The notes under the pieces: generated by a model | The model's database searches: none | What the model was told of the DNA's origin: nothing | The model's input: only the letters and a program-made list of their open reading frames with translations | Shown here: one piece after another, positions 12,474 to 12,919 of the stretch | Position numbering within the stretch: position 1 is the stretch's first letter | How the letters are laid out: the number at the start of each line of letters is the position of its first letter | Virus record (IMG/VR): IMGVR_UViG_2778261122_000005 | Location: 1-12,956 of that record | Length of the DNA: 12,956 nucleotides | DNA from: a virus | Lineage: Duplodnaviria > Heunggongvirae > Uroviricota > Caudoviricetes | Direction: 5' to 3' (one strand) | Made by a program: the position numbers and the translations under genes

Positions 12474-12606
12474 AGCTACCTCGATACTTTCGCTATCGTT
12501 GGTGGTCAGACGCTCTGCATGTGTTCCAGCACTGCGGGGCGTTGTCTTTATGGTGTCATTGGTATACATTGTCACCTTGATGACATTATTATCACAGAGG
12601 TTTACC
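12474..12606. promoter_or_regulatory. Divergent promoter/operator region between the early operon and the ribbon-helix-helix gene
   Basis: 133-bp gap between divergent starts. Contains GTCATTGGT (~12555..12563) and clustered CATTGTCA / TGACATT motifs (~12567..12587). The same 9-mer recurs inverted at ~12613..12621 and direct at ~12838..12846. Confidence 0.5.
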
Positions 12607-12783
12607 ATGTCAACCAATGACAACAAAAAAGAAAGATTTTCCGTGCAACTACGTCTGGACGCAGATTTGTTCGAGCGTTTAAGCATTGCCATGAAAGAAG
12701 ATGGCGACGATAACCGCTCTGGATGGATCAAAAGGCTTTTACGACGCGAATTAGATAAACGCGGCATTGAGTCAAAAAGCTGA
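12607..12783 (+). CDS. Ribbon-helix-helix (Arc/CopG-like) DNA-binding protein, putative island regulator
   Basis: 58-aa ORF from ATG 12607 with an AGAGG Shine-Dalgarno. The N-terminal KKERFSVQLRLDADLFERLSIAMKE fits the beta-strand-then-helix signature of ribbon-helix-helix proteins. Divergent from the early operon. Confidence 0.55.
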   Translation: MSTNDNKKERFSVQLRLDADLFERLSIAMKEDGDDNRSGWIKRLLRRELDKRGIESKS

Positions 12784-12919
12784 CAGCCCACCAGCAAGCC
12801 AGCGTATTCACCATAATGACCCTCGGTTAAACCTAGAGTCATTGGTGCAAACCTGACAGATTGCCCACCAGCCAGCAAATCGCTATGATGTTCGGGCTTA
12901 TGTTTAGTGTTTTCCCATT

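What the first reader, a model, noticed from the sequence alone, without database searches (positions are those of the whole stretch)
12474..12850. Ribbon-helix-helix regulator flanked by three copies of GTCATTGGT
The 9-mer GTCATTGGT occurs in the divergent promoter (~12555), inverted across the regulator's start codon region (~12613), and again downstream of the gene (~12838), together with TGTCA / TGACA half-sites. This looks like an operator set for the small ribbon-helix-helix protein. That would make it the island's master repressor, notable because no helix-turn-helix repressor or AlpA-like gene is visible in the window.
Basis: partly seen in the sequence, partly recalled or inferred. 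Interest (0 to 1): 0.45.

Follow-up and report, generated by a model that had tools for sequence, protein, structure and literature searches.

The report
Satellite's small repressor and its operators
A 58-residue ribbon-helix-helix protein in a capsid-encoding phage satellite very likely shuts off the satellite's replication operon and its own gene through two inverted repeats at their shared promoter region. The third repeat is not part of that set, and the protein is not shown to be the island's master switch.

Summary
GTCATTGGT occurs exactly at 12555(+), 12613(-) and 12838(+), with a fourth copy at 10468(-); 0.07 copies are expected by chance. The 58-aa gene (12607-12783) is a real gene under purifying selection, and its predicted fold is ribbon-helix-helix.

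- **Copies 1 and 2:** they are the cores of a 26-bp imperfect inverted repeat. One arm lies on a conserved, near-consensus leftward promoter whose -35 overlaps the RHH start codon. The other arm lies on the likely RHH promoter.
- **Comparative support:** in related islands this segment is a swappable cassette. Each different RHH comes with its own 10-14-nt repeats, while the flanking AlpA and Icd-like genes stay the same. That is the pattern expected of a repressor and its operators.
- **Copy 3:** it is not part of the set. It sits in a separate hairpin block found in 19 E. coli genomes, 17 of which lack this RHH. Most genomes that carry this RHH lack the block.
- **Copy 4:** it is coding sequence (S-V-I-G) in the primase-like gene.
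- **"Master repressor":** this is not supported. An AlpA-family gene lies about 11 bp beyond the window end in islands that share the window's right flank.

I also found a covariation-supported candidate small RNA, antisense to the ribosome-binding site of the Icd-like gene. No binding or repression has been tested.

The parts
12607..12783 (+). Gene for the 58-aa ribbon-helix-helix protein (stop codon included).
   Evidence: - ORF and Shine-Dalgarno.
- Purifying selection, e.g. 32 synonymous against 3 non-synonymous codon differences versus L018.
- AF2 model with an extended stretch at 10-18 and helices 19-32 and 37-51, pLDDT 81.
- Foldseek top hits are all RHH proteins (NikR, MazE9 N-terminal domain, Arc, CopG).
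- Weak RHH_1, RHH_10, NikR and YlcI_YnfO_N HMM hits.
12547..12572 (.). Left operator arm (O_R). It contains 9-mer copy 1 (12555-12563) and CATTG boxes at 12557 and 12567.
   Evidence: - Inverted repeat I1.
- It overlaps the spacer and -10 of the candidate rightward promoter.
- The core GTGTCATTGGTATACATTGTCAC is invariant in L002, L003, L004, L016 and L017 although the flanks diverge.
- CAWTG boxes sit at fixed positions -50/-51 and -40/-41 across 23 loci.
12604..12629 (.). Right operator arm (O_L). It contains 9-mer copy 2 (12613-12621, minus strand), the imperfect box CCATG at 12605 and CAATG at 12615.
   Evidence: - Inverted repeat I1.
- It overlaps the -35 of P_L and codons 1-8 of the RHH gene.
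- In L004, L017 and L018, ATG/TTG-TCAACCAATGACAACAA is unchanged at the nucleotide level although 15-25% of the gene's bases differ.
12585..12613 (-). Leftward promoter P_L: TTGACA (12613-12608), 17-nt spacer, AATAAT (12590-12585). It drives the operon from the Icd-like gene to the DUF927 primase-like gene.
   Evidence: - 11 of 12 consensus matches.
- TTGACA sits at the same position relative to the RHH start in 25 of 25 distinct loci; a 5/6 -10 lies at 16-17 nt in 16 of 25.
- The same arrangement is present in the Pasteurella element.
12542..12570 (+). Candidate rightward promoter P_R: TTGTCT, 17-nt spacer, TACATT. It would drive the RHH gene. This assignment is inferred.
   Evidence: - TACATT is conserved at -42/-43 in nearly all family loci, with a 3-4/6 -35 at 17-18 nt.
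- The scan tool offers an alternative, TATACA (12563), 18-nt spacer, TATTAT (12592).
12809..12847 (.). Hairpin/palindrome block containing 9-mer copy 3 (12838-12846), which pairs with ACCATAATGAC (12810-12820). It is not part of the RHH-specific set.
   Evidence: - It folds well on both strands, z -4.2 and -4.6.
- The block 12785-12860 is present in 19 of 5426 E. coli genomes, only 2 of which have this RHH.
- It is present downstream of other RHH types in L005 and L006.
- It is absent from L003, L004 and L016-L018.
10468..10476 (-). Fourth exact 9-mer, inside the DUF927 gene, in frame as S-V-I-G.
   Evidence: The same sequence is present in the DUF927 genes of L001 and L009, which do not carry this RHH gene (L001 carries another type). 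I treat it as a coding coincidence.
12267..12473 (-). Icd-like gene, the first gene of the leftward operon.
   Evidence: - NCBIfam NF033153, E 1.6e-19.
- PGAP annotation in relatives.
12473..12552 (+). Candidate small RNA antisense to the Icd-like start codon and ribosome-binding site. It has two stem-loops (12475-12506 and 12509-12543) followed by a U-rich tract. A possible extended -10, TGgTATGAT, lies at 12458-12466.
   Evidence: - The plus strand folds at -32.9 kcal/mol (z -4.6); the minus strand gives z -0.8.
- Across 14 loci, 98.2% of cells are paired and 7 pairs covary, reached by 0 of 500 shuffles. Many G-U pairs are valid only on the plus strand.
- No Rfam family matches.
12920..12947 (+). 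Intrinsic terminator after the RHH gene.
   Evidence: 8-bp GC-rich stem followed by TTTGTTTT. It is conserved in L001-L006.

Best explanation
The right end of the window holds the early regulatory switch of a capsid-forming PICI-type phage satellite.

- **Promoter.** A near-consensus leftward promoter, P_L, drives an operon of the Icd-like gene, three small ORFs, a DUF4222 gene and the DUF927 primase-like gene. Its -35 hexamer is written across the first codons of the RHH gene.
- **Operators.** The 58-aa ribbon-helix-helix protein is transcribed the other way. I infer that it binds as dimers to the two arms of a 26-bp imperfect inverted repeat. Each arm carries the 10-mer TGTCATTGGT and two CAWTG-type pentamers one helical turn apart.
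- **Effect.** Binding at the right arm would cover the -35 of P_L and keep the replication operon silent. Binding at the left arm would cover the protein's own promoter and so autoregulate it.
- **Cassette.** Protein and sites form an exchangeable specificity cassette set between a conserved Icd-like/small-RNA flank and a conserved flank leading to alpA.
- **Excluded copies.** The third and fourth 9-mers are not part of this operator set.
- **Rank.** The protein is a local repressor acting alongside AlpA, whose gene lies just outside the window. It is not a demonstrated master regulator.

Shown here: the repeats, the promoter overlap, the fold, the purifying selection, and the covariation of cassette and repeat. 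Inferred: binding, the direction of the effect (repression), and the promoter start sites.
For: - **Repeats are non-random:**
- **P_L:** it matches 11 of 12 consensus positions and overlaps the start codon. TTGACA is at the same position in 25 of 25 loci, and ATG/GTG-TCA-AC is invariant at the DNA level even in 45%-identical relatives and in a Pasteurella element.
- **RHH fold:**
- **Real gene:**
- **Footprint:** both arms are conserved in type-A relatives whose flanks and synonymous sites have diverged.
- **Boxes:** CAWTG boxes lie at four fixed positions, 71 observed against 5.3 expected.
- **Cassette covariation:** the window and L001 are near-identical outside about 12508-12847 and unrelated inside. 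Seven other RHH variants each have their own significant 10-14-nt repeats at the same promoter region: L001 GGTGTAAGACAC x3, L006 TGTACGTACGTAAC, L008, L011, L013 and L015.
- **Repeats track the RHH:** L005 and L006 share 98%-identical AlpA and 90-95% Icd-like proteins but have different RHHs and different repeats.
- **Site positions in L001:** the sites lie in the P_L spacer, just downstream of its -10, and at the start site of the rightward promoter, which are repressor-type positions.
- **Where the family varies:** differences are concentrated at residues 11-12, at the start of the DNA-reading strand.
Against: - No binding or expression data exist. Every family member is annotated 'hypothetical'.
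- HMM matches to RHH families fall below the curated cut-offs.
- The Foldseek E-values are weak (best 0.12), because the domain is very small.
- The loci compared are related by descent, so the box enrichment is not a set of independent observations.
- Part of the arm conservation could come from promoter function or coding constraint rather than protein binding.
- In type-A relatives L018 and L019 the left 9-mer differs at 1-2 positions.
- The recognition unit is not resolved: CAWTG, TGWCA or the 10-mer.
- The P_R assignment reaches only 8 of 12 consensus positions.
Confidence: 0.62

Rival explanations
1. The inverted repeat is only the footprint of two overlapping, roughly symmetric promoters. 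RNA polymerase elements and flanking sequence were duplicated in inverted orientation, and the RHH protein does not bind there.
For: - Each 9-mer abuts a promoter hexamer: GTCATTGG-TTGACA on the minus strand and GTCATTGG-TATACA on the plus strand.
- TTGACA and TACATT are conserved family-wide.
Against: - The 9-mer itself lies outside the consensus hexamers, in the spacer of P_R and upstream of the -35 of P_L, where RNA polymerase imposes little sequence constraint.
- Unrelated cassettes have unrelated repeats at the equivalent places, and these change with the RHH.
Confidence: 0.12
2. The repeats are bound by another regulator: AlpA, a Bro-N protein, PerC, or a helper-phage protein. The RHH has a different role.
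For: - AlpA is the known activator of Gram-negative PICI genes (PMC6092414), and its gene lies next door.
- The site centred about -37 to -39 relative to the likely P_L start could in principle suit an activator.
Against: - L005 and L006 have 98%-identical AlpA but different repeats.
- The repeats are exchanged together with the RHH gene inside one cassette.
- The PerC and Icd-like flanks stay conserved across cassette types.
Confidence: 0.1
3. All three intergenic or downstream 9-mers form one operator set. Copy 3 would act as a distal operator that loops around the RHH gene.
For: - Three exact copies lie within 292 bp.
- Copy 3 lies in a palindrome whose other arm, ACCATAATGAC, resembles the reverse complement of the 9-mer.
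Against: - Only 2 of the 17 E. coli genomes with this RHH gene have the copy-3 block, and 17 of the 19 genomes with the block lack this RHH.
- L003, L004 and L016-L018 keep copies 1 and 2 (L018 with a diverged left copy) but lack copy 3.
- L005 and L006 carry the block with other RHH types.
Confidence: 0.08
4. The RHH is the antitoxin-like partner of the Icd-like cell-division inhibitor. It would neutralise that protein or mainly control that single toxic gene, and would not act as a switch for the satellite life cycle.
For: - Many RHH proteins are antitoxins: MazE9, ParD, PrpA and HicB appear among the fold hits.
- The first gene under P_L is annotated as a cell-division inhibitor.
Against: - No toxin gene is co-transcribed with the RHH. 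It is monocistronic, with its own terminator.
- The protein has no C-terminal extension of the kind antitoxins use to bind their toxin (58 aa).
- P_L also leads into the primase operon.
Confidence: 0.08

Closest known systems
Phage P22 immI region (Mnt and Arc ribbon-helix-helix repressors, Pant/Pmnt promoters, sar antisense RNA). This comparison rests on established knowledge and was not tested here.
   Same: - A small RHH repressor gene is transcribed away from an early operon.
- The operators overlap closely spaced opposing promoters.
- The repressor probably autoregulates.
- A small antisense RNA over the ribosome-binding site of the first operon gene is a candidate here.
   Different: - There is no sequence relationship beyond the fold; Arc appears only as a weak fold hit.
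- There is one RHH here, not two.
- The controlled operon encodes an Icd-like protein and a primase, not an antirepressor.
- The element is a satellite, not a phage.
YlcI/YnfO family (NCBIfam NF041551; DUF3950) proteins of lambdoid prophages and PICIs.
   Same: - Proteins annotated as this family occupy the same position (divergent from the Icd-like gene) in related islands L001, L004, L005 and L044.
- There is weak similarity: NF041551 E 0.004, and BLASTP E 0.001 at 28% identity to the L001 protein.
   Different: - The score of 17.2 bits is below the family cut-off of 30.
- PGAP calls the identical protein 'hypothetical'.
- The N-terminus (MST...) and the operator type differ.
- No function is published for YlcI/YnfO in the library searched.
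NikR N-terminal RHH domain, CopG and other RHH repressors.
   Same: - NikR 1q5v is the best structural match: rmsd 1.3 A over 40 residues, 38% identity, probability 0.99.
- NikR equivalog HMMs align to residues 13-54.
   Different: - There is no metal-binding C-terminal domain.
- All scores are far below the family cut-offs.
- The genomic context is different.
Stl/Rpr master repressors of Gram-positive PICIs (PMC6092414).
   Same: - The gene is transcribed opposite to the replication module.
- It lies between the integration genes and the replication genes.
- Its proposed role is to keep the replication operon silent.
   Different: - Stl/Rpr are larger helix-turn-helix proteins, which a helper-phage protein derepresses.
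- Here the protein is a 58-aa RHH, and an AlpA activator is also present.
- Control of the whole island has not been shown.
P4 and P1 immunity regions (CI/C4 RNA with icd or kil).
   Same: An Icd-like gene heads the operon that leads to the primase. RNA-level control of that leader is plausible.
   Different: - No C4 or isrK match was found.
- The candidate RNA here is transcribed antisense, not processed from the sense leader.
- P4 has no protein repressor.

Membership tests
Ribbon-helix-helix (Arc/MetJ/CopG) superfamily | An N-terminal strand followed by two helices (beta-alpha-alpha). | tested here: met
   The AF2 model (pLDDT 81) has an extended stretch at 10-18 and helices 19-32 and 37-51. 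The top Foldseek PDB hits are RHH proteins: NikR, MazE9 N-terminal domain, Arc and CopG.
Ribbon-helix-helix (Arc/MetJ/CopG) superfamily | A match to a curated RHH profile at its gathering score. | tested here: not met
   RHH_1 scores 15.3 bits against a cut-off of 20.5. RHH_10 hits 13 of 31 homologues and RHH_1 hits 4 of 31, with E-values of 0.004 at best.
Ribbon-helix-helix (Arc/MetJ/CopG) superfamily | Dimerisation through an antiparallel beta-ribbon that binds repeated DNA sites. | not testable with these tools
   Only indirect evidence is available: cassette-specific repeats that covary with the strand residues.
YlcI/YnfO family (NF041551) | A score at or above the NCBIfam cut-off of 30 bits. 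| tested here: not met
   17.2 bits, E 0.0039.
Type II toxin-antitoxin RHH antitoxin | A toxin gene co-transcribed next to the antitoxin gene. | tested here: not met
   No ORF of 40 aa or more lies wholly between the stop codon at 12783 and the terminator at 12920-12947, although ORFs running off the window end are not listed. The neighbouring gene is divergent.
PICI master repressor (Stl/Rpr type) | A helix-turn-helix repressor that controls the island and is relieved by a helper-phage protein. | tested here: not met
   The fold is RHH, not HTH. Control of the whole island and relief by a helper protein cannot be tested here.
Capsid-forming PICI (cfPICI), the element as a whole | Its own capsid, protease, portal, connector, HNH, TerS and TerL genes plus a primase, and no tail or lysis genes. 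| tested here: met
   Pfam assigns TerL, Terminase_4, Phage_portal, Phage_capsid, DUF927 and SSB. The related island L001 has the matching annotation. No tail or lysis genes turned up among the window ORFs or in L001's annotation.
Capsid-forming PICI (cfPICI), the element as a whole | int and alpA at one end. | tested here: inconclusive
   Both lie outside the window. They are present immediately beyond the equivalent point in L002, L005 and L006, which share the window's last ~170 nt.
C4 / isrK immunity RNAs (Rfam) | A match to the covariance model. | tested here: not met
   No hit at the gathering threshold anywhere in the window, and none at E<=1 in 12200-12956.

The most novel reading that the evidence does not exclude
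The exchangeable cassette of RHH plus repeats, together with the adjacent antisense small RNA, could be the missing immunity or repression module of Gram-negative PICIs and cfPICIs. It would keep the Icd-like/primase operon silent until AlpA-driven events override it. It would also define incompatibility or 'immunity' groups among co-resident satellites, much as immunity regions do in lambdoid phages.
Probability: 0.3. Interest if true: 0.65.

Novelty: new member of a known kind. Interest (0 to 1): 0.45.

Why it matters
[quoted passage not shown] The analysis gives three things to work with:
- a concrete, testable candidate for the repressor of the replication operon;
- its probable operators, mapped to the base;
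- evidence that protein and sites are swapped as a unit between otherwise near-identical islands in at least nine genera.

If confirmed, it would explain how these satellites stay quiet and how co-resident satellites avoid cross-talk. The mechanism itself, an RHH autoregulator at opposing promoters, is textbook.

Tried and rejected
- **Rfam.** The whole window at gathering thresholds gave nothing. The region 12200-12956 at E<=1 gave only a spurious mir-87 match that reflects the inverted repeat. C4/isrK immunity RNAs are therefore rejected.
- **PHROGs.** No match for the RHH.
- **PDB by sequence.** A profile search found nothing significant; NikR scored E 1.1.
- **Phage collection.** A tblastn search found a single hit, a 15-kb Pasteurella 'phage' that is itself satellite-like. 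The family is therefore not a phage repressor family.
- **Literature.** Searches for YlcI/YnfO/DUF3950 and for PICI operator/repressor found no functional study.
- **Fourth 9-mer as an operator.** Rejected, because it is conserved coding sequence in islands without this RHH gene.
- **TGTCA-N6-TGACA palindrome at 12570-12585 as a third promoter-proximal site.** Its right half is not conserved in L003, L004 or L017.
- **Longer upstream starts for the RHH** (TTG at 12499, ATG at 12550). Rejected, because the family alignment and the Shine-Dalgarno sequence support the ATG at 12607.

Full report
**1. What the window is**

The window encodes the following genes, all on the minus strand:
- TerL (760-2421) and TerS (2405-2902)
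- portal (4118-5431) and major capsid (5958-7127)
- PerC-family protein (8225-8518) and SSB (8522-8947)
- DUF927 primase-like protein (9184-11310) and DUF4222 protein (11307-11621)
- three small ORFs and an Icd-like gene (12267-12473)

A related E. coli island, L001, is annotated the same way. It adds HNH, connector, head-closure and prohead-protease genes. This gene set matches the capsid-forming PICI (cfPICI) type of phage satellite (bioRxiv 10.1101/2022.09.08.507074). The only convincingly supported plus-strand gene in the region of interest is the 58-aa ORF at 12607-12783.

**2. The observation**

- GTCATTGGT occurs exactly at 12555(+), 12613(-) and 12838(+), with a fourth copy at 10468(-). 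That is four copies against 0.07 expected.
- Copies 1 and 2 extend to an exact inverted 10-mer, TGTCATTGGT, and to 26-nt arms at 12547-12572 and 12604-12629 that are 81% complementary.
- TGTCA/TGACA pentamers are also enriched: 5 in 91 nt against 0.22 expected.

**3. The protein**

- *Real gene.* Against relatives whose DNA differs by 15-25%, almost all codon differences are synonymous. Against L018, 32 are synonymous and 3 are not.
- *Family.* 96 homologues at 67-100% identity occur across Enterobacterales, and every one is annotated 'hypothetical'.
- *HMM evidence.* It is weak but consistent: RHH_1 E 0.02, YlcI_YnfO_N E 0.004, NikR N-terminal domain E 0.001, and RHH_10 in 13 of 31 homologues.
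- *Fold.* The AF2 model (pLDDT 81) shows an extended stretch at 10-18 followed by helices 19-32 and 37-51. The leading Foldseek hits are RHH proteins, headed by NikR 1q5v (rmsd 1.3 A over 40 residues) and including MazE9 N-terminal domain, Arc, CopG and ParD.
- *Where the family varies.* Differences fall almost entirely at residues 11 (F/Y/N/H/I/C) and 12 (S/A/V/T/I), at the start of the predicted DNA-reading strand. R10, V13, Q14 and R16 are invariant.

**4. Where copies 1 and 2 sit**

*Leftward promoter.* The scan found TTGACA (12613-12608), a 17-nt spacer and AATAAT (12590-12585), which is 11 of 12 consensus positions.
- Its -35 is the reverse complement of TGTCAA in ATG-TCA-ACC, so it overlaps the RHH start codon.
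- TTGACA is at this exact position in all 25 distinct family loci. A 5/6 -10 lies at 16-17 nt in 16 of them.
- The triplets ATG/GTG-TCA-AC are invariant at the DNA level even in 45%-identical relatives and in a Pasteurella element. That indicates a constraint on the DNA itself.

*Copy 2.* It lies immediately upstream of this -35 and abuts it.

*Copy 1.* It lies in the spacer of a candidate rightward promoter, TTGTCT-17-TACATT (12542-12570). The TACATT is conserved family-wide. The tool's alternative is TATACA-18-TATTAT. With either choice the two promoters overlap and fire in opposite directions.

*Family-wide boxes.* Across 23 distinct loci a palindromic pentamer CAWTG occupies four fixed positions: -51/-50, -41/-40, -2 and +8 relative to the start codon. 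That makes two pairs, each one helical turn apart, with 71 boxes observed against 5.3 expected. The loci are related by descent, so this enrichment overstates the number of independent observations. In the window, box -2 is the imperfect CCATG. The central base of the box flips between A and T in different lineages while the outer bases stay fixed, as expected for a dyad-symmetric half-site.

**5. Cassette covariation, the strongest argument**

The window and L001 are nearly identical to the left of about 12508 and to the right of 12847, but unrelated in between. The L001 cassette has a different RHH, annotated YlcI/YnfO and 28% identical to this one. It carries three copies of GGTGTAAGACAC, placed in the P_L spacer, just downstream of its -10, and at the rightward start site.

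Other islands, anchored on the Icd-like gene in further genera, each have their own RHH strand sequence and their own repeats. The longest exact repeat in each was reached in 0 of 500 shuffles.

| Locus | Repeat |
|---|---|
| L006 | TGTACGTACGTAAC (inverted) |
| L008 | TGACTCCCACCT |
| L011 | GTGCGGCCACAC |
| L013 | GGTGCTATTCAC |
| L015 | GTGGCATTCAC, three copies |

L005 and L006 share 98%-identical AlpA, 90-95% Icd-like proteins and an identical right flank. They nevertheless have different RHHs and different repeats. The repeats therefore track the RHH and not the neighbouring regulators. Within type A, both arms are invariant in L002, L003, L004, L016 and L017 while the surrounding bases diverge.

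**6. Copy 3 and copy 4**

*Copy 3.* It lies in a hairpin or palindrome at 12809-12847, where it pairs with ACCATAATGAC. The fold z-scores are -4.2 and -4.6 on the two strands.
- The block 12785-12860 occurs in 19 of 5426 complete E. coli genomes, and only 2 of those have this RHH.
- The RHH gene occurs in 17 genomes at 80% coverage or more, and only 2 of those have the block.
- L005 and L006 carry the block after other RHH types.
- L003, L004 and L016-L018 lack it.

*Copy 4.* It encodes S-V-I-G in the DUF927 gene. It is also present in L001 and L009, which do not carry this RHH gene.

Neither copy belongs to the RHH-specific set. Why two unrelated exact copies exist when only 0.07 are expected remains unexplained, and I record it as such.

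**7. The 'master repressor' claim**

In L002, L005 and L006, whose DNA matches the window from 12785 to its end, an AlpA-family gene lies on the minus strand about 11 bp past the window end (Pfam Phage_AlpA, E 1e-16 to 1e-17). An integrase gene follows further on, in L002 after an HTH_17 gene and a hypothetical ORF.

In the characterised elements EcCICFT073 and EcCIEDL933, AlpA is an autoactivating, helper-dependent activator required for induction (PMC6092414; bioRxiv 10.1101/2022.09.08.507074). [quoted passage not shown] A local repressor of the replication operon is therefore a useful candidate.

**8. Mechanism proposed**

I infer that RHH dimers occupy both arms. The right arm would occlude the -35 of P_L and silence the operon running from the Icd-like gene to the primase. 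The left arm would occlude the RHH promoter and give autoregulation. Confidence is about 0.6. Rivals, in descending plausibility, are:
- promoter symmetry with no protein binding;
- binding by another regulator;
- a three-site looping set;
- an antitoxin-like role.

**9. Also present**

- *Candidate antisense RNA.* Between the Icd-like start codon and copy 1, the plus strand folds into two stem-loops followed by a U-rich tract (-32.9 kcal/mol, z -4.6). The minus strand does not fold comparably (z -0.8). Across 14 loci, 98.2% of pair cells are standard pairs and 7 of 24 pairs covary, a level reached by 0 of 500 shuffles. About 60 cells are G-U pairs, which would be A-C mismatches on the other strand. 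With a conserved TAnnnT -10 at 12461-12466, this suggests an RNA of about 80 nt antisense to the ribosome-binding site of the Icd-like gene. No Rfam family matches it.
- *Closest analogue.* From established knowledge, the nearest textbook system is the P22 immI region (Mnt/Arc plus sar RNA).

**10. Verdict**

The finding is a real feature. It is an uncharacterised member of the RHH repressor/operator class in a new context, a swappable regulatory cassette of Gram-negative phage satellites.

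Noticed in passing
window 12458-12552 (+): Candidate small RNA of about 80 nt, antisense to the start codon and Shine-Dalgarno of the Icd-like gene. It has two stem-loops and a U-rich tract, strong covariation and G-U pairs specific to the plus strand. It has no Rfam match. Its terminator tail merges with the -35 of the likely RHH promoter.
   Followed up: partly
window 12809-12847: Strong hairpin/palindrome that contains the third 9-mer. It is conserved at 96-100% in 19 E. coli genomes regardless of RHH type. Its function is unknown; it could be an RNA 3' structure, an attenuator for leftward transcripts from alpA, or a binding site.
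   Followed up: partly
window 12861-12947 (+): Conserved promoter-like site (TTGCCC-17-TATGAT) followed about 30 nt later by a strong terminator. It could specify a tiny RNA of about 50 nt. Alternatively it could be the start of a hydrophobic mini-ORF (MMFGLMFSVFPLATAPGRLCF...) that runs antisense into the 3' end of alpA. No Shine-Dalgarno sequence is visible.
   Followed up: no
window 12779-12795 (-): Terminator-like hairpin on the minus strand (GCTGGTGGGCTGTCAGC + TTTTTG) lying over the RHH stop codon. It could stop leftward transcription arriving from the alpA side. It is not conserved in L005.
   Followed up: no
window 10468-10476 (-); also L001 11169 and L009 4001: Fourth exact GTCATTGGT, inside the DUF927 gene (codons S-V-I-G). 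It shares the 11-mer AGTCATTGGTG with copy 3. I treat it as coincidence, but two extra exact copies are more than chance predicts.
   Followed up: partly
L001 (NZ_CP048330) 210-953 and 16458-17486: The related cfPICI sits inside a prophage large-terminase gene, which is split into two pseudogene halves. This is the helper-embedded configuration described in PMC10111431.
   Followed up: no
L004 (NZ_CP054363) 3150-4260: One island carries two RHH cassettes in tandem. The first is a YlcI/YnfO type next to the Icd-like gene. About 500 bp downstream lies a second, type-A cassette with both promoter 9-mers intact and a TTG start that turns the imperfect box into a perfect CATTG.
   Followed up: partly
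L003 (NZ_CP100500) 2751-4373: RefSeq annotates a 1623-nt 'Icd-like' CDS that runs straight across the promoter region and the RHH gene on the opposite strand. The RHH gene itself is not annotated. This is probably an annotation artefact.
   Followed up: no
L045 (Pasteurella phage Pmp8, OR544139) 4860-5190: A 15-kb record deposited as a phage has the same module: the GGTTAGA motif plus terminator, TTGACA over the start of an MST... RHH gene, and a 14-bp palindrome ATGGTAATTACCAT. It looks like a packaged cfPICI-type satellite.
   Followed up: partly
window 7422-7895 (+): 157-aa ORF between the capsid gene and the PerC-like gene, on the opposite strand, with no Pfam, NCBIfam or PHROG match. It may be an accessory gene of the satellite.
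   Followed up: no
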